NCBI RefSeq assembly: GCF_055900595.2
Contig: NZ_CM148325.1
Length of the DNA: 64,000 bases
Strand: one strand, 5' to 3'
This document shows, piece by piece, positions 55,233 to 64,000 of this stretch. A program made the position numbers and the translations under genes. The notes under the pieces were generated by a model. That model was not told the origin of the DNA. It searched no databases and worked only from the letters and a program-made list of their open reading frames with translations. Every line of letters starts with the position of its first letter. Position 1 is the first letter of the stretch.

Positions 55233-56771
55233 ATGACCAATAATCCCCCTTCAGCACAGATTAAGCCCGGCGAGTATGGTTTCCCCCTCAAGTTAAAAGC
55301 CCGCTACGACAACTTTATTGGCGGCGAATGGGTAGCCCCTGCCGACGGCGAGTATTACCAGAACCTGACGCCGGTGACCGGGCAGCTACTGTGCGAAGTG
55401 GCGTCTTCGGGCAAACGAGACATCGATCTGGCGCTGGATGCTGCGCATAAAGTGAAAGATAAATGGGCGCATACTTCGGTGCAGGATCGCGCGGCGATTC
55501 TGTTTAAGATTGCCGATCGAATGGAGCAGAACCTCGAACTTTTAGCGACGGCTGAAACCTGGGATAACGGCAAACCCATTCGCGAAACCAGTGCTGCTGA
55601 TGTACCGCTGGCGATTGACCACTTCCGCTATTTCGCCTCGTGTATTCGGGCGCAGGAAGGCGGTATTAGCGAAGTGGATAGCGAAACCGTGGCTTATCAC
55701 TTCCACGAACCGTTAGGCGTGGTGGGGCAGATTATCCCGTGGAACTTCCCGCTGTTGATGGCGAGCTGGAAAATGGCTCCCGCGCTGGCGGCGGGCAACT
55801 GTGTGGTGCTGAAACCCGCACGTCTTACCCCGCTTTCTGTACTGCTGCTAATGGAAATCGTTGGTGATTTACTGCCGCCGGGCGTGGTGAACGTGGTTAA
55901 CGGTGCTGGTGGGGAAATTGGCGAATATCTGGCGACCTCGAAACGCATCGCTAAAGTGGCGTTTACCGGCTCAACGGAAGTGGGCCAACAAATTATGCAA
56001 TACGCTACGCAAAACATTATTCCGGTGACGCTGGAGCTGGGCGGCAAATCGCCAAATATCTTCTTTGCTGATGTGATGGATGAAGAAGATGCCTTTTTCG
56101 ATAAAGCGCTGGAAGGCTTTGCACTGTTTGCCTTTAACCAGGGCGAAGTTTGCACCTGTCCAAGCCGTGCTTTAGTGCAGGAGTCTATCTACGAACGCTT
56201 TATGGAACGCGCCATCCGCCGTGTCGAAAGCATTCGTAGCGGTAACCCGCTCGACAGCGTGACGCAAATGGGCGCGCAGGTTTCTCACGGGCAATTGGAA
56301 ACCATCCTTAACTACATTGATATCGGTAAAAAAGAGGGCGCAGACGTGCTCACCGGTGGGCGGCGCAAGCTGCTGGAAGGCGAACTGAAAGACGGCTACT
56401 ACCTCGAACCGACGATTCTGTTTGGTCAGAACAATATGCGCGTGTTCCAGGAAGAAATTTTTGGTCCGGTGCTGGCGGTAACCACCTTCAAAACGATGGA
56501 TGAGGCGCTGGAGCTGGCGAACGACACGCAATATGGTCTGGGGGCTGGTGTCTGGAGCCGCAACGGTAATCTGGCCTATAAGATGGGGCGCGGCATTCAG
56601 GCCGGGCGAGTGTGGACCAACTGTTATCACGCTTACCCGGCACATGCGGCGTTTGGTGGCTATAAGCAGTCGGGTATCGGGCGCGAAACCCATAAGATGA
56701 TGCTTGAGCATTACCAGCAAACCAAGTGCCTGCTGGTGAGCTACTCAGATAAACCGTTGGGGCTGTTCTGA
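55233..56771 (+). CDS. aldB: aldehyde dehydrogenase B
   Basis: Track ORF 55059..56771; start placed at [33 protein letters not shown] (ATG 55233), 512 aa. Confidence 0.93.
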
Positions 56772-56783
56772 TGTAAGAAGCTG

Positions 56784-56830
56784 GTCGCATCGGGTATTCA
56801 TTGCCTGATGCGACGCTTTCGCGTTTTACC
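56784..56830 (+). terminator. hairpin after aldB (gtcgcatc...gatgcgac) followed by T-rich tract
   Basis: 8-bp inverted repeat read from sequence. Confidence 0.5.
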
Positions 56831-57048
56831 AATTCAAATGTCTACGTCTTGAATGACTGAATATTGATTGAACTTAATTACGAGTCTCCTCGCATCTTTT
56901 CAACAAGTTACTGCACACCGTTATTCTTCTTCCGAACGGCATTCCTGAGTCAACTTTATCTCCCTGACGGCCCATATAAATCGCGCTATCGTGATTGTTA
57001 TTGCTAAGTGTGTGTGTATCGTGTGTATAATCATGGAAGGGCAGGGAT

Positions 57049-57234
57049 GTGAAAAGTGCAGACGTGATCGCCATCCTGAAGCAGCATGGCTGGGAACATA
57101 TTCGAACCCGTGGTAGTCATCATCAGTTCCGCCACCCTGTCCATCCGGGTCTGGTGACGGTTCCGCACCCTAAAAAAGATATTAAGCCCGGTACGCTGGC
57201 GCAAATTGGGCGTCAGGCTGGTTTAACATTTTAA
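57049..57234 (+). CDS. hicA: HicA-family toxin (61 aa), GTG start
   Basis: MKSADVIAILKQHGWEHIRTRGSHHQFRHPVHPGLVTVPHPKKDIKPGTLAQIGRQAGL: HicA-like GSHH...GL(V)TVP(H)PKKD signature; TATAAT at 57025-57030 upstream. Confidence 0.8.
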   Translation: MKSADVIAILKQHGWEHIRTRGSHHQFRHPVHPGLVTVPHPKKDIKPGTLAQIGRQAGLTF

Positions 57235-57250
57235 AATTTCAGGAGGCAAT

Positions 57251-57661
57251 ATGTTTTATCCCGCCTATATCCACAGTGATCCTGACGGCAGCGCCAGCGG
57301 TTTTTTCCCTGATGTTCCAGGCTGTTATTTTGCTGGTGATACGCTGGACAACGCTTTCCAGGATGCGCGAAGTGCACTGGTCGCGCACTTCGAAACCTTA
57401 TGCGAGATGAATGAAGAGTTGCCGCTTCCAGGCTCTGTGGAAACACATCTGGTCCAGCGTGCGCAGGACTTTATTGGCGGGCAATGGTTGCTGGTGGATA
57501 TCAATATGAATCAGTTCGAAGGTCGGGCTGAACGTATCAATATTACGATGCCGAAAAGATTACTGAACAAGATTGATACCTACGTGCGCAATAACCCAGA
57601 CTACGCCAACAGAAGTGCGTTTCTGGCGGAAGCTGCCCGGCGTGTATTGCCGGGCGTTTAA
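57251..57661 (+). CDS. hicB: HicB-family antitoxin (136 aa) with C-terminal ribbon-helix-helix
   Basis: Starts 17 nt after hicA; C-terminal INITMPKRLLNKIDTYVRNNPDYANRSAFLAEAARRVL is RHH/CopG-like. Confidence 0.75.
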   Translation: MFYPAYIHSDPDGSASGFFPDVPGCYFAGDTLDNAFQDARSALVAHFETLCEMNEELPLPGSVETHLVQRAQDFIGGQWLLVDINMNQFEGRAERINITMPKRLLNKIDTYVRNNPDYANRSAFLAEAARRVLPGV

Positions 57662-58041
57662 TCTCGCGTTTCGATGGTGAGCGGGCGGACCAGGCTGTAC
57701 AGCCACAGACCAAAACAAGCGATGGTGCCAATCACCACGGTGAGGAACACACTGACTGACAGGCCTGCAAGCAATCCCGCAGGCAGGGCCAGCAGGCCGT
57801 GGATCACGGTGTCGTTCCATCTCACCTGATCGTAGCCAAACATGCCTAAAACGCCGCAAACCAGACCGTAAATCACCATTGGTGTTCCGAGGCCAATCAG
57901 CAATAAACGGTAGATAATTGAAGGTTTAATACGCTTTATCTGTACTGTGGATGTTTTACTGGGGTTATTCATTAGTTTGGTCAATAGTTCCATTATTTCA
58001 ATATGATAAACCTCGACCTGTTGAAAAGCCAGGTAGCACAC
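57658..58041 (-). CDS. small hydrophobic membrane protein of unknown function (111-127 aa depending on start)
   Basis: Track ORF; two or three predicted TM segments (IIYRLLLIGLGTPMVIYGLVCGVLGMF, GLLALPAGLLAGLSVSVFLTVVIGTIACFGLWLY); 3' end overlaps hicB stop by 4 nt (convergent). Start uncertain. Confidence 0.45.
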   Translation of the reverse strand: MCYLAFQQVEVYHIEIMELLTKLMNNPSKTSTVQIKRIKPSIIYRLLLIGLGTPMVIYGLVCGVLGMFGYDQVRWNDTVIHGLLALPAGLLAGLSVSVFLTVVIGTIACFGLWLYSLVRPLTIETRD

Positions 58042-58154
58042 TTCAGAAAGTATATAAAAAACAATATGTCGTTATATAAATAAGGAAATTGCACTGCATC
58101 ATGGCATTTCATAATATGCGTTAATTGTTCTTTTTTATATTCTCTGAGGGAAAT

Positions 58155-58478
58155 ATGTTCCTGGACTATTTTGCACTGGGAGTGCTTATTTTTGTATTTC
58201 TGGTGATATTCTATGGGATTATTATTTTACATGATATTCCCTACCTGATTGCTAAAAAACGTAATCATCCTCATGCCGACGCCATTCATGTTGCTGGTTG
58301 GGTGAGTCTTTTTACGCTGCATGTTATCTGGCCATTTTTGTGGATTTGGGCCACGCTTTACCGCCCGGAGCGGGGATGGGGAATGCAAAACCATGACTCC
58401 TCCGTTGTGCAACTACAACAGCGTATTGCCGGGCTGGAGAAACAGCTCGCCGACATCAAATCCTCTTCTGCCGAGTAA
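58155..58478 (+). CDS. yiaW: DUF3302-family small inner membrane protein YiaW (paralog of YibI)
   Basis: Start at [46 protein letters not shown]-terminal ~75 aa nearly identical to YibI. Confidence 0.85.
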
Positions 58479-61504: not shown

Positions 61505-61590
61505 CAGGCTTGATAAGACGCGTTAAGCGTCGCATCAGGCAATGTGCACCCTACGTTGGATGCGGCGCGAGCGCCTTATCCAACCTACGG
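61505..61590. repeat. REP/BIME element overlapping the stop codon of the downstream GH127 gene
   Basis: aggcttgataagacgcgttaagcgtcgcatcaggca and ggatgcggcgcgagcgccttatccaacctacgg. Confidence 0.65.
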
Positions 61591-63555
61591 ATGGCAATGC
61601 TTTTCCTCATTCACCCAGATCCGCATTTCGCCTTCACCCCGGTTAGCCCAGCTAAACCACGGGATAAATGTCAGAGTTTGCGGCTGGCGTTTGGCTGGCG
61701 CGCTGTCGTAATGCCACAGCGGTTGCTGCTCTGGATAGCTCTGTTCATACCGGTAACCCGGTGCCTGGATTAAGATCTTATGGCTGAACAATCCCTTACC
61801 TTCAAATGTCGTAAATGGCGCATCGGTGGGCAGCCACAGATTATGCAGTGACTCGCCGTTGTCGGCCTGTTCCAGGCAATACACCAGCGGGCCGCGCTGA
61901 ATCGCCACTTTTCCGGCGACGTGACGCACCAGCGGGTTACCGTAAACGCGACGTACCGGCATTGGCAACGTCAGATTCAGCGTGTCGCCCTCCTGCCATT
62001 CGCGGGTAATGTGCAAATACCCTTTACGAATATCCTGCTCGACCTCTTCCCCATTCAATGTAATCTGCGGCTGTGTGCACCAGTCCGGCAGACGTAAAGC
62101 CAGCGTATGACGCACCGGCTGGGGCGATTCAACCGCAATTGTCACCTGTTCCTGCCACGGATAGTTTCCGCTAACCCGCAGACGCAGCGTGCCATTTTCT
62201 ACCGGCACTTCCATGCTGTTTCCTGCGTAGATGTTGATATACAACGCATCTTCACGCGGCGTGTAGAGATAATGACCAATCGAGGTTAGCACGCGGGCGA
62301 TATTTGGCGGACAACAAGCGCAACCAAACCAACGCTGGCGGATCGGCTTAACGTGATCGTAGATATGGTTGAATTTCAGCGATTTTGGATGTACTTCCAG
62401 CGGATTCACATAGAAGAAATGTTTGCCATCCAGCGCCATGCCGCCGAGCACGGTGTTGTACAGTGCGCGCTCCATCACATCGGCATATTGACTGTCGCCT
62501 TCCATTTCCAGCATTCGCCGGGCGAACATCATCAGGCCGATGGAAGCACAGCTTTCGGCGTATACCGTGTCATTCGGCAGATCGTAATCGCTGCTGAACG
62601 CTTCGCCGCTGCTTTGTGAGCCAATGCCGCCGGTAATATATAACTGACGCTGGGCCATATTGTTCCACAGCCGCAGGCAGTCCTGACGCTTGCTTTCATC
62701 GTGACTTAAACGCGCGAGATGCGCGACGCCGGTCATCAGGTAGACAAAACGTACCGCGTGACCAATGGCGGTTTGCTGCTGTGCGATGGGCAAATGTGCC
62801 TGGCTGTAGGCTTTGTCTTTCACCATCCACGCCGGGCCGTAGGTGTGCCAGTGCGAGGTCTGCCCGCGCTTTTCATATTCCTGGTCGTAATAGTGCGGTT
62901 GCGCACCACGCTGTTCGACAAAATAGTTCGTCAGCGCCAGGTAGCGCGGCTCTTCGGTCACTTCATACAGGCGCATTAGTGCCAGTTCAATTTCCGGGTG
63001 ACCAGGATAACCGTGTAACTTACTTTCACCTGGACCAAATACGCTGTCGATATGATCGGCCAGACGGCAAACCACTTCCAGCAAGCGCCGCTTGCCCGTG
63101 GCCTGGAAGAAGGCGACTCCGGCTTCAATCAGATGACCGGCGCAGTAAAGTTCATGACACTCCGCCAGATTGCTCCAGCGTTCTTTGGGCGCTTTTACCG
63201 TAAAGTAAGTATTGAGATAGCCATCTTCGCACTGGGCGGAAGCGACCAGTTCGATTACCTCGTCAGCAGTTTTTTCCAGTTCGGCATCCGGCTTCTGGCA
63301 CAGCGACCAGGCTACCGCTTCCAGCCATTTGGCGACGTCGCTGTCCTGAAACACCATCCCGTAAAATTCACCGTCTTGCAGTCCTGCGGCAATGCGAAAG
63401 TTTTCAATCGCATGGCTGGGTTCCGCTTCTGGGATACGATCGTTCAAGGCATCCCACTGATAAGGAATCACCACGTCGCGGACCAGTTGTTGGTACTGAC
63501 CGAGGAACGGATCGCTGACCGTCAGTTTATGCAGATCGACTTCCGAAATGTTCAT
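61585..63555 (-). CDS. DUF1680/glycoside hydrolase family 127-like protein (beta-L-arabinofuranosidase-like), about 656 aa
   Basis: Track ORF 61585..63603; start placed at MNISEVDL (ATG 63553-63555) behind an AAGGAG SD; cysteine-rich motif WFGCACCPPNIARV as I recall for the GH127 family. Confidence 0.6.
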   Translation of the reverse strand: MNISEVDLHKLTVSDPFLGQYQQLVRDVVIPYQWDALNDRIPEAEPSHAIENFRIAAGLQDGEFYGMVFQDSDVAKWLEAVAWSLCQKPDAELEKTADEVIELVASAQCEDGYLNTYFTVKAPKERWSNLAECHELYCAGHLIEAGVAFFQATGKRRLLEVVCRLADHIDSVFGPGESKLHGYPGHPEIELALMRLYEVTEEPRYLALTNYFVEQRGAQPHYYDQEYEKRGQTSHWHTYGPAWMVKDKAYSQAHLPIAQQQTAIGHAVRFVYLMTGVAHLARLSHDESKRQDCLRLWNNMAQRQLYITGGIGSQSSGEAFSSDYDLPNDTVYAESCASIGLMMFARRMLEMEGDSQYADVMERALYNTVLGGMALDGKHFFYVNPLEVHPKSLKFNHIYDHVKPIRQRWFGCACCPPNIARVLTSIGHYLYTPREDALYINIYAGNSMEVPVENGTLRLRVSGNYPWQEQVTIAVESPQPVRHTLALRLPDWCTQPQITLNGEEVEQDIRKGYLHITREWQEGDTLNLTLPMPVRRVYGNPLVRHVAGKVAIQRGPLVYCLEQADNGESLHNLWLPTDAPFTTFEGKGLFSHKILIQAPGYRYEQSYPEQQPLWHYDSAPAKRQPQTLTFIPWFSWANRGEGEMRIWVNEEKHCHP

Positions 63556-63565
63556 CTTGTGCTCC

Positions 63566-64000
63566 TTAAGGCTGTACATGACGCTGACGCAGGTCGCTAG
63601 CAATGCGTGACATCATAGGGTTATTGAGTTTGCAAAAGCGGATCGCCATCGCCAGCAGCAGGTGGAACAGCGCAGGCAGCAATGTTTCCATCGCCGCGAT
63701 CCCGCCAAGCGAACTGGCGGTCTGGTTTTCCACGCCTGGCTGGTAGGCGACAAAAATAAACAGCAGGCTGATGATCCCGGCGCTGGAGGCCCAGGCCAGC
63801 TTGATGAAAAACAGATTGAAGGCGAAGTTCATGCCGGAAGAACGTACGCGGGTTTTCCACTCGCCGTAGTCATCGGCAAAGGCCATCAATGAGAAGTGCA
63901 ATGGCAATGTGAAGCCAAGAATCACGCCATTACCAAGGATCACCGCCAGCCACAGCGTTTGATAAGCCGGGCCAGAAGGCAGGAACCACATCAACACCGC
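63566..64000 (-). CDS. glycoside-pentoside-hexuronide (GPH)/MFS-type sugar:cation symporter, 3' portion only (5' end beyond window)
   Basis: Hydrophobic C-terminal 143 aa in track ORF 63566..63997; stop lies 11 nt upstream of the GH127 start on the same strand. Confidence 0.55.
   Translation of the reverse strand, partial: AVLMWFLPSGPAYQTLWLAVILGNGVILGFTLPLHFSLMAFADDYGEWKTRVRSSGMNFAFNLFFIKLAWASSAGIISLLFIFVAYQPGVENQTASSLGGIAAMETLLPALFHLLLAMAIRFCKLNNPMMSRIASDLRQRHVQP

What the first reader, a model, noticed from the sequence alone, without database searches (positions are those of the whole stretch)
56772..58154. HicA/HicB-like toxin-antitoxin pair lies between aldB and yiaW
A 61-aa HicA-like protein and a 136-aa HicB-like protein with a C-terminal RHH domain form a tight two-gene unit with its own consensus -10 (TATAAT at 57025-57030). 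From memory, the K-12 hicAB pair is at a different chromosomal locus and K-12 has no hicAB here, so this may be a strain-specific insertion of a TA module into the aldB-yiaW spacer. I cannot verify that from the sequence alone.
Basis: partly seen in the sequence, partly recalled or inferred. Interest (0 to 1): 0.6.

Follow-up and report, generated by a model that had tools for sequence, protein, structure and literature searches.

The report
Ancient HicAB toxin-antitoxin pair, lost in K-12
The two small genes after aldB are a real HicA/HicB toxin-antitoxin pair of a known type, but they are an old resident of this chromosomal neighbourhood that K-12 and most E. coli have lost, not a new insertion.

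Summary
hicA (57049-57234, GTG start, 61 aa) matches Pfam HicA_toxin (E 2e-23). hicB (57251-57661, 136 aa) matches HicB_lk_antitox over its full length (E 9e-36). The nearest solved structures are Burkholderia pseudomallei HicA/HicB and Yersinia pestis HicB3, both with ribbon-helix-helix (RHH) antitoxins. Gly22 and His24 of HicA are kept.

The "strain-specific insertion" reading is not supported.
- K-12 has no gene here but keeps a scar: the last ~84 bp of hicB, with REP repeats replacing hicA and the rest of hicB.
- E. whittamii and another Escherichia species share the same breakpoint and filler.
- hicAB at 75-86% HicB identity lies within 6 kb downstream of aldB in 12 of 18 loci from other Enterobacterales.
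- dN/dS is about 0.06-0.09, and GC content is native.
- True plasmid homologues are ≤58% identical and phage homologues <43%.

Among 5,426 complete E. coli genomes, 505 keep hicAB, about 3,400 keep only a fragment and about 1,500 keep nothing.

Verdict: an ordinary, uncharacterised member of a known family with an informative history. Low to moderate interest.

The parts
56784..56814 (.). REP-like inverted repeat just after the aldB stop (GTCGCATCGGG / CCTGATGCGAC). It is context, not part of the module, and is shared by all E. coli alleles.
   Evidence: Inverted repeat. Conserved in the K-12, type-2 and type-4 alleles. Calling it REP rests on my knowledge of the REP consensus.
56879..56894 (+). 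Palindrome TACGA-N6-TCGCA, which resembles the CRP-S core TGCGA-N6-TCGCA. It starts 170 nt upstream of the hicA GTG and marks the left edge of the conserved hicAB unit.
   Evidence: A site with at most 3 mismatches starts at -169 to -173 in 12 of 16 orthologous upstream regions. Six have at most 2 mismatches, against 0.27 expected and a maximum of 3 in 2,000 shuffles. The half-sites are conserved while the spacer varies. Within the window alone the motif occurs at chance frequency. In EC556-type strains, homology to the window resumes at 56876 (query position 105).
56931..56946 (+). Second conserved upstream block (TCCGA-N6-TTCCT; consensus yGCGA...TTCCtG), about 118 nt upstream of hicA. Function unknown.
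   Evidence: Conserved columns in the alignments. Related sequences appear as second-best CRP-S-like matches at -120/-121 in three genera.
56983..56995 (+). Conserved block GCGCTA-N2-GTGAT. Candidate distal HicB operator or other regulator site.
   Evidence: Conserved across the 18 aligned sequences within otherwise diverged spacer DNA. Part of an imperfect hairpin/palindrome at 56979-56996. The operator role is inferred by analogy with Y. pestis PhicA3, which has two operators flanking the promoter (review PMC11594946).
57012..57031 (+). Conserved block GTGTGTAT-N2-TGTG-TATAAT, holding the -10 hexamer TATAAT (57026-57031) and a 9-nt-period direct repeat of TGTGTAT. Candidate promoter plus proximal HicB operator.
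   Evidence: Nearly invariant across the 18 aligned sequences. No -35 at 16-18 nt; the best is TTGCTA at 57001-57006 with a 19-nt spacer. An operator overlapping the -10 is known for Y. pestis HicB3 BS2 and B. pseudomallei HicB (PMC11594946).
57049..57234 (+). hicA: a 61-aa HicA-family toxin with a GTG start. Gly22 and His24 are present.
   Evidence: Pfam PF07927 E 2.1e-23. PDB 4C26/6G26 B. pseudomallei HicA E 1e-16, with query His24 aligned to the mutated H24A position. GTG start in all 15 orthologous loci checked plus the window. dN/dS median 0.093.
57251..57661 (+). hicB: a 136-aa antitoxin with an N-terminal HicA-binding domain (partial RNase H fold) and a C-terminal ribbon-helix-helix DNA-binding domain (about residues 93-133).
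   Evidence: Pfam PF15919 E 9.1e-36 over the full length. PDB 6G1N E 2.8e-25 and 4P78 E 1.6e-21 over residues 1-133. dN/dS median 0.064. PHROG 497 'HicB-like'.
57634..57656 (+). G+C-rich hairpin (9 pairs) within the last codons of hicB, between the convergent hicB and ORF104. Possible terminator.
   Evidence: Terminator-like site. Function not tested.
57658..57972 (-). ORF104: a 104-aa hydrophobic (predicted membrane) protein of unknown function, convergent with hicB with overlapping stops. A neighbour, probably not part of the TA module.
   Evidence: Annotated as hypothetical protein WP_001064341.1. No Pfam, NCBIfam, PADLOC or PHROG family. Homologues of 54-58% identity lie next to hicB in Pseudocitrobacter and Enterobacter sp. 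kpr-6, and a 94% homologue is intact in E. whittamii where hicAB is deleted. K-12 carries a 171-bp internal deletion.

Best explanation
This is a bicistronic, toxin-first type II toxin-antitoxin operon of the classical hicAB kind in which HicB ends in a ribbon-helix-helix domain (class 4 of Gerdes 2024).

Inferred mechanism, from homology to the B. pseudomallei and Y. pestis systems. HicA is a small RNase with a double-stranded-RNA-binding fold. It cleaves cellular RNA independently of the ribosome and uses His24, with Gly22. [quoted passage not shown] HicB dimerises or tetramerises through the RHH domain and represses the operon, most likely at the conserved block overlapping the -10 (57012-57031), with a second conserved block at 56983-56995. 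Excess HicA would be expected to loosen HicB from DNA.

Shown by comparison. The module is not a recent insertion. It is an old chromosomal resident of the aldB / yiaTUVW / GH127 neighbourhood in Enterobacteriaceae and has been kept under purifying selection. Within Escherichia it is an old presence/absence polymorphism. The window carries the most complete allele: aldB-hicAB-ORF104-yiaWVUT-GH127. K-12-like genomes carry a REP-filled deletion scar. Other lineages have lost ORF104-yiaWVUT, or everything between aldB and GH127.
For: Family identity:
- Pfam, PDB sequence matches over the full length including the RHH, PHROGs and RefSeq naming.
- Catalytic Gly22 and His24 are retained (their roles are described in PMC11594946).
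- Class definition: PMC10865869.

Deletion rather than insertion:
- The K-12 alignment shows a hicB 3' remnant, a REP filler and a 171-bp deletion in ORF104.
- E. whittamii and Escherichia sp. MOD1-EC7003 have the identical breakpoint and filler.

Old residency:
- hicAB lies within 6 kb downstream of aldB in 12 of 18 loci from other Enterobacterales, at 68-86% HicB identity.
- dS is saturated, as for aldB, and dN/dS is 0.06-0.09.
- GC content is about 0.49-0.51, like the flanks.
- There are no plasmid copies in E. coli genomes. The closest true plasmid homologue is 58% identical and the closest phage homologue 43%.

Regulation: the -10, the GTG start and the upstream blocks are conserved.

Allele structure.

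Frequencies: 505 of 5,426 genomes intact, 3,902 with any hicAB match, 15 with the whole interval.
Against: - Nothing here shows toxicity, neutralisation, RNA cleavage or DNA binding. All mechanism is by homology.
- The simple promoter scan finds no canonical promoter at the TATAAT, and a transcript starting about 7 nt after it would have a leader of only about 11 nt.
- NCBIfam HMMs gave no hit at E ≤ 0.01, and PADLOC gave none.
- Gene order around hicAB differs between genera. It is directly after aldB in E. coli, Yokenella and Enterobacter sp. kpr-6, but after yiaT in Enterobacter, Lelliottia and Pseudocitrobacter. Six loci show no aldB within reach (one of them, L010, has under 1 kb of contig upstream). 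'Same neighbourhood' is therefore firmer than 'same site', and old horizontal exchange by homologous recombination cannot be excluded.
- Complete-genome collections are biased, so 9.3% is not a population frequency.
Confidence: 0.85

Rival explanations
1. One reading: a recent, strain-specific insertion of a mobile TA cassette into a K-12-like aldB-yiaW spacer.
For: K-12 has no gene here. Only 505 of 5,426 complete E. coli genomes have hicAB, and only 15 have this exact interval. HicA and HicB families do occur on phages and plasmids in general.
Against: K-12-like spacers contain the 3' end of hicB and a partly deleted ORF104, which an empty target site could not contain. The same scar occurs in two other Escherichia species. 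Orthologues lie in the same neighbourhood across genera with saturated dS. GC is native and there are no flanking repeats. I saw no mobility gene among the ORFs of the interval, without a dedicated search. No close plasmid or phage copy exists.
Confidence: 0.03
2. A domesticated or decaying relic. The ORFs are intact, but HicA is no longer toxic, or the pair is silent, and it is on its way to the loss seen in most E. coli.
For: Loss is frequent. About 91% of complete E. coli genomes lack an intact pair. Toxin-first decay is visible in relatives: hicA is frameshifted in Escherichia sp. E1V33, carries His24->Pro in Enterobacter chuandaensis, and is missing or truncated with hicB kept in two Enterobacter MAGs. 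No canonical -35 is present.
Against: In the window both ORFs are intact, with Gly22 and His24. The proteins are identical in the strains examined: HicA in H1, H2 and H4; HicB in H1 and H2, 99% in H4. dN/dS of 0.06-0.09 across genera shows long-term constraint on both genes. The promoter-region blocks are conserved.
Confidence: 0.1
3. A three-gene unit in which the convergent membrane protein ORF104 works together with HicAB, for example as a sensor, an effector or a second immunity component.
For: ORF104 abuts hicB with overlapping stop codons. The hicB-ORF104 adjacency recurs in Pseudocitrobacter and Enterobacter sp. kpr-6 at 54-58% identity.
Against: The two parts are lost independently. 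About 490 E. coli genomes and most other genera have hicAB without ORF104, while E. whittamii keeps ORF104 without hicAB. Convergent orientation means separate transcripts. ORF104 matches no known family.
Confidence: 0.05

Closest known systems
Burkholderia pseudomallei HicAB (PDB 4C26, 6G1N, 6G26)
   Same: This is the best solved match to both proteins (HicA E 1.2e-16, HicB E 2.8e-25, full length). It has the same toxin-first order, the same Gly22/His24 numbering, and the same HicB architecture of an N-terminal HicA-binding domain plus a C-terminal RHH. Its operator overlaps the -10, and a CRP-S motif is predicted in its promoter (PMC11594946).
   Different: It comes from a different bacterial class. 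Sequences are clearly diverged (HicA E 1.2e-16, HicB E 2.8e-25; identity not computed). The operator sequence here is unknown and was not compared. Nothing about this E. coli pair has been tested.
Yersinia pestis HicA3-HicB3 (PDB 4P78, 4P7D)
   Same: HicB3 is RHH-type and aligns over residues 1-132 (E 1.6e-21). It has two operators flanking the promoter, with the main one over the -10, which parallels the two conserved blocks at 56983-56995 and 57012-57031.
   Different: hicA3 and hicB3 are separated by 174 bp, against 16 nt here. HicA3 is only weakly similar (E 1e-4).
E. coli K-12 HicAB (hicA b4532 / hicB b1438; PDB 6HPB)
   Same: Same superfamily, same toxin-first order and also a GTG start for hicA. 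Its P1 promoter is Sxy/CRP-S dependent, which would parallel the CRP-S-like palindrome conserved here.
   Different: It is a different locus (1.509 Mb) and a different class. K-12 HicB has a C-terminal helix-turn-helix, and only residues 1-66 align (33% identity). HicA similarity is marginal (pairwise E 0.011).

Membership tests
HicA toxin family (Pfam PF07927) | Small (about 60 aa) protein matching the HicA profile (dsRBD-like fold) | tested here: met
   PF07927 E 2.1e-23 over model positions 2-58 of 58. PDB HicA 4C26/6G26 E 1e-16. phrog_353 'toxin' E 9e-23.
HicA toxin family (Pfam PF07927) | Conserved catalytic histidine, with the preceding glycine, in the G-S-H motif | tested here: met
   Gly22-Ser23-His24 are present. 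His24 aligns with the H24A position of 4C26. Their role in toxicity is described in PMC11594946.
HicA toxin family (Pfam PF07927) | RNase activity and growth arrest on expression | not testable with these tools
   Needs expression and in vitro cleavage assays.
HicB antitoxin, RHH type (class 4 hicAB of Gerdes 2024) | N-terminal HicB (partial RNase H fold) domain | tested here: met
   PF15919 full length, E 9.1e-36. Aligns to the N-domains of 6G1N, 4P78 and also K-12 6HPB.
HicB antitoxin, RHH type (class 4 hicAB of Gerdes 2024) | C-terminal ribbon-helix-helix DNA-binding domain, not HTH | tested here: met
   Residues about 93-133 align with the RHH domains of 6G1N and 4P78. The K-12 HTH-type HicB aligns only to residues 1-66. 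No 3D model was made here, so the fold is inferred from sequence homology to solved structures.
HicB antitoxin, RHH type (class 4 hicAB of Gerdes 2024) | Gene order hicA then hicB in one operon | tested here: met
   Same strand, 16-nt spacer, own Shine-Dalgarno sequence. Class definition in PMC10865869. Co-transcription itself was not tested.
Type II toxin-antitoxin system (functional definition) | The antitoxin protein binds and neutralises the toxin and autorepresses the operon | not testable with these tools
   Only indirect support: conserved blocks over the -10 and upstream and co-conservation of both genes.
Recently inserted genomic islet / mobile cassette | An empty site in relatives, with flanking repeats, mobility genes or foreign composition | tested here: not met
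   The 'empty' K-12 site contains hicB and ORF104 remnants. No direct repeats. GC is native. Cross-genus synteny.
Sxy/CRP-S regulon promoter (as for K-12 hicAB P1) | A CRP-S site (TGCGA-N6-TCGCA core) suitably placed upstream of a promoter, with Sxy- and CRP-dependent expression | tested here: inconclusive
   A motif with 1 mismatch lies at 56879-56894 and is conserved in position across genera. It occurs at chance frequency within the window. No promoter could be placed at a canonical distance from it. Dependence on Sxy and CRP cannot be tested here.

The most novel reading that the evidence does not exclude
This hicAB is not a selfish, mobile addiction cassette. It is a host-integrated RNase switch that has kept a fixed chromosomal neighbourhood since before the Enterobacteriaceae genera diverged. 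It is wired, like the unrelated-class K-12 hicAB, to the Sxy/CRP-S (competence-type) regulon through the conserved palindrome at 56879-56894. Its intact and deleted alleles persist side by side across Escherichia species as a long-lived, possibly balanced, polymorphism.
Probability: 0.2. Interest if true: 0.5.

Novelty: new member of a known kind. Interest (0 to 1): 0.3.

Why it matters
Taken alone this is a routine annotation, since RefSeq already names these proteins HicA and HicB family. Two points are modestly useful.

First, it corrects a tempting inference. Absence from K-12 did not mean gain in this strain. K-12 carries the deletion scar, and the annotated 47-aa 'hypothetical protein' between aldB and yiaW in K-12-like genomes is a remnant of a neighbouring gene.

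Second, it gives a clean natural series for studying how chromosomal TA modules persist and decay. The series runs from an intact pair, through a toxin frameshift, a catalytic His->Pro change and an antitoxin-only state, to a REP-filled scar. All stages sit at one orthologous locus with saturated synonymous divergence and strong purifying selection.

If the conserved CRP-S-like site is functional, two different classes of E. coli hicAB would share Sxy/CRP control. That would point to a physiological role rather than mere addiction.

Tried and rejected
- NCBIfam HMMs gave no hit for HicA, HicB, ORF104 or YiaW at E ≤ 0.01. This is uninformative, because Pfam and PDB matches are strong.
- PADLOC gave nothing for the three proteins, so there is no support for a catalogued defence system.
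- Rfam at E ≤ 1 gave nothing in 56600-58300.
- The sigma-70 scan did not call the TATAAT promoter. I kept the -10 because of its cross-genus conservation, but the promoter is not demonstrated.
- I looked for an inverted-repeat operator near the -10. The repeat finder found only the REP hairpin, and I could not define a convincing palindrome by eye, so I report conserved blocks only.
- The CRP-S-like motif is not enriched within the window (4 found, 3.8 expected). I keep it only because its position is conserved. I could not place a matching -10 at a class I or class II distance from it.
- Literature: no paper in the library links hicAB with aldB or yiaW. The accession WP_000833473 appears only in a Xanthomonas TA survey. 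The primary B. pseudomallei HicB-DNA and Y. pestis HicAB3 papers were not held, so I used the reviews. I could not determine which hicAB was studied in ExPEC PPECC42.
- The homologue search for ORF104 returned only Escherichia hypothetical proteins and fragments.
- I did not assign phylogroups to the alleles, because no tool gives a strain typing or a tree.
Full report
**1. What is in the sequence**

aldB ends at 56771 and yiaW starts at 58155. Three genes lie between them, not two.
- hicA: 57049-57234 (+), GTG start, 61 aa.
- hicB: 57251-57661 (+), 136 aa. It follows hicA after 16 nt and has a CAGGAGG Shine-Dalgarno sequence.
- ORF104: 57658-57972 (-), a 104-aa hydrophobic protein. It is convergent with hicB and their stop codons overlap.

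**2. Family identity**

- HicA matches Pfam HicA_toxin (E 2.1e-23, whole model).
- HicB matches HicB_lk_antitox (E 9.1e-36, whole model).
- Against solved structures, the best HicA matches are B. pseudomallei HicA 4C26/6G26 (E about 1e-16). Gly22-Ser23-His24 are conserved, and His24 lies opposite the H24A position of 4C26.
- HicB matches B. pseudomallei HicB 6G1N (E 2.8e-25) and Y. pestis HicB3 4P78 (E 1.6e-21) over residues 1-133. That span includes their ribbon-helix-helix domains.
- K-12 HicB (6HPB) aligns only over residues 1-66, and K-12 HicA is barely similar.
- The pair therefore belongs to the classical toxin-first hicAB operons with an RHH HicB, class 4 in PMC10865869. It is distinct from the HTH-type K-12 pair at 1.509 Mb.
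- RefSeq already names the identical proteins as HicA and HicB family. PHROGs agree. NCBIfam and PADLOC gave nothing.

**3. Is it an insertion? No**

MG1655 has no annotated gene between aldB and yiaW. Aligning a K-12-lineage spacer with the window shows the following (tblastn).
- The aldB-proximal REP is shared.
- Window positions of about 56831-57576, which hold hicA and most of hicB, are replaced by roughly 90 bp of REP-type sequence.
- Homology then resumes inside hicB at about 57577 and runs through its stop. This remnant encodes the last 27 residues and carries a 12-bp deletion.
- ORF104 carries a 171-bp internal deletion. The 47-aa 'hypothetical protein' that PGAP calls in K-12-like genomes is what remains of its 5' end.

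An empty insertion target could not contain the 3' end of the inserted gene, so the K-12 state is derived by deletion. E. whittamii and Escherichia sp. MOD1-EC7003 have the same breakpoint and the same REP filler. The deletion therefore happened once, either before those lineages separated or with later spread by recombination.

**4. Depth of residency**

A scan of one genome per species found HicB relatives of 68-86% identity in 18 loci from other Enterobacterales (17 intact hicB genes, L009-L025, plus the hicB fragment in L031). The genera include Pseudocitrobacter, Pluralibacter, Trabulsiella, Yokenella, Citrobacter, Enterobacter, Lelliottia, Phytobacter and Serratia.
- In 12 of these 18 loci, aldB (92-96% identical) lies within 6 kb upstream of hicAB.
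- hicAB is directly adjacent to aldB in Yokenella and Enterobacter sp. kpr-6.
- In Enterobacter, Lelliottia and Pseudocitrobacter it comes after yiaU-yiaT.
- A GH127 glycoside hydrolase gene usually lies convergent downstream, with an ORF104 homologue in between in two genera.

Synonymous sites between the window and these orthologues are saturated, as they are for aldB. dN/dS is about 0.09 for hicA and 0.06 for hicB. GC content is native, and no direct repeats flank the pair. I saw no mobility gene among the ORFs of the interval, though I ran no dedicated search. All E. coli copies are chromosomal. The nearest true plasmid homologue is 58% identical and the nearest phage homologue 43%. The two hits at 99% or above in the plasmid collection are 4.9-Mb records, that is, chromosomes.

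**5. Alleles in E. coli**

| Allele | Gene order | Genomes |
|---|---|---|
| Window type | aldB-hicAB-ORF104-yiaW-yiaV-yiaU-yiaT-GH127... | 15 |
| Type 2 | aldB-hicAB-GH127-MFS-AraC-sgbE | about 490 (inferred: 505 minus 15; two inspected) |
| K-12 type | aldB-REP-ΔhicB-ΔORF104-yiaWVUT | about 3,400 keep the hicB fragment |
| Type 4 | aldB-REP/BIME-GH127, no trace of hicAB | not counted (two inspected); about 1,500 genomes have no hicAB match |

- The window type is the most complete allele. Its GH127 is 99% identical to the type-2 copy.
- Type 2 retains about 25 bp of the ORF104 3' end. Some type-2 strains have a 359-aa HSDR_N-domain gene inserted between aldB and hicA.
- In total, 505 of 5,426 complete genomes (9.3%) carry at least 80% of hicAB. 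Sampling is biased, so this is not a population frequency.
- Breakpoints delimit the conserved hicAB unit as roughly 56876-57686.

**6. Regulatory region**

Aligning the upstream DNA of 18 sequences (about 11 genera) shows islands of conservation in otherwise unalignable spacer.
- The GTG start and a purine-rich Shine-Dalgarno sequence; the GTG is present in all 15 orthologous loci checked.
- A block GTGTGTAT-N2-TGTG-TATAAT at 57012-57031.
- A block GCGCTA-N2-GTGAT at 56983-56995.
- A block around 56931-56946.
- A palindrome TACGA-N6-TCGCA at 56879-56894.

The first two blocks resemble the arrangement in Y. pestis PhicA3, which has two HicB3 operators with the main one over the -10. B. pseudomallei also has an operator over the -10 (PMC11594946). 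I infer that they are the promoter and the HicB operators.

The palindrome matches the CRP-S core. A site with at most 3 mismatches starts at -169 to -173 in 12 of 16 orthologous upstream regions. Six have at most 2 mismatches, against 0.27 expected and a maximum of 3 in 2,000 shuffles. Relatedness of the sequences inflates this comparison. Within the window alone the motif occurs at chance frequency. I could not place a promoter at a canonical distance from it. K-12 hicAB P1 is Sxy/CRP-S dependent, so shared control is a lead, not a result. The simple promoter scan does not call the TATAAT because the best -35 (TTGCTA) is 19 nt away.

**7. Mechanism**

Shown here: family membership of both proteins, retention of the catalytic residues, operon layout, long-term purifying selection, conserved cis elements and deletion history.

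Inferred from homologues:
- HicA cleaves RNA and arrests growth.
- HicB binds HicA through its N-domain and represses the promoter through RHH dimers.
- Excess HicA relieves repression.

Not addressed: the biological role, whether phage defence, stabilisation of the variable neighbourhood, stress response or Sxy-linked physiology.

**8. Rivals**

- Recent insertion is contradicted (sections 3 and 4).
- A silent or detoxified relic remains possible, since loss and toxin-first decay are common in relatives. It is disfavoured for this allele by the intact catalytic motif and the selective constraint.
- A three-gene unit with ORF104 is unlikely, because the two parts are lost independently.

**9. 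Verdict**

The identification as HicAB is correct. The 'insertion' interpretation is wrong in direction: this window holds the ancestral-like, most complete allele, and K-12 holds the scar. It is an uncharacterised member of a well-known family. Interest is low to moderate and comes mainly from the evolutionary series and the conserved CRP-S-like element.

Noticed in passing
window 57658-57972 (-); L024 6405-6716; L018 6401-6712; L033 6076-6387: ORF104 is a 104-aa hydrophobic protein with no Pfam, NCBIfam, PHROG or PADLOC family. It is conserved next to hicB in Escherichia, Pseudocitrobacter and Enterobacter sp. kpr-6 at 54-94% identity. It is intact in only 27 of 5,426 complete E. coli genomes. 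The 47-aa 'hypothetical protein' WP_001066080.1 annotated between aldB and yiaW in K-12-like genomes is its 5' remnant, left after a 171-bp deletion.
   Followed up: partly
window 61585-63603 (-) and beyond: A GH127 glycoside hydrolase gene follows yiaT in the window. In other strains an MFS transporter and an AraC regulator follow GH127. In the strains inspected, GH127 directly abuts hicB (type 2) or aldB (type 4, where it is frameshifted). The window therefore holds both the yiaWVUT block and the GH127 cassette, whereas the other strains inspected hold one of them next to aldB or hicB.
   Followed up: partly
L001 2851-3000 (K-12-like) and L034 5058-5180 (type 4): In both hicAB-less alleles the missing DNA is replaced by REP/BIME-type repeats (GCCGGATAAGGCG...CGCATCCGGC). 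This suggests that REP elements were involved in, or colonised, the deletion junctions.
   Followed up: no
L005 1620-2699 (-), E. coli EC556; L011 6420-7499, L017 6412-7488, L021 6412-7488: A stand-alone 359-aa protein with a type I restriction R-subunit N-terminal (HSDR_N, PD-(D/E)XK-like) domain recurs next to hicAB. It lies between aldB and hicA in some E. coli, and convergent downstream of hicB in Trabulsiella, Enterobacter chuandaensis and Lelliottia (77% identical between E. coli and Trabulsiella). It has only a weak PADLOC hit, to a type IIG restriction enzyme. It may be a defence-type neighbour.
   Followed up: partly
L008 169-350; L017 hicA; L009, L016, L031: Relatives show stages of TA decay. 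hicA is frameshifted with hicB intact in Escherichia sp. E1V33. The catalytic His24 is replaced by Pro in Enterobacter chuandaensis HicA. hicA is missing or truncated with hicB kept in two Enterobacter MAGs. hicB is fragmented in Lelliottia nimipressuralis.
   Followed up: partly
L034 2059-3354; L035 2059-3354: In type-4 E. coli strains a Fic-family protein gene sits between yiaY and aldB. It is absent from the window and from K-12. This is another sign that the yiaY-aldB-sgbE stretch is a hotspot of gene-content variation.
   Followed up: no
L007 (1,246-bp contig labelled Collinsella sp. MAG): A contig binned as Collinsella carries the aldB end plus hicAB at 97-100% protein identity to E. coli. 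This is almost certainly an E. coli contig mis-binned into an actinobacterial MAG.
   Followed up: no
L036 1281-1300 versus window 57043-57060: K-12 hicA and this hicA both start with GTG in a similar context (GATGTGAAA), although the proteins are barely similar. This may be coincidence, or a shared means of keeping toxin translation low.
   Followed up: no
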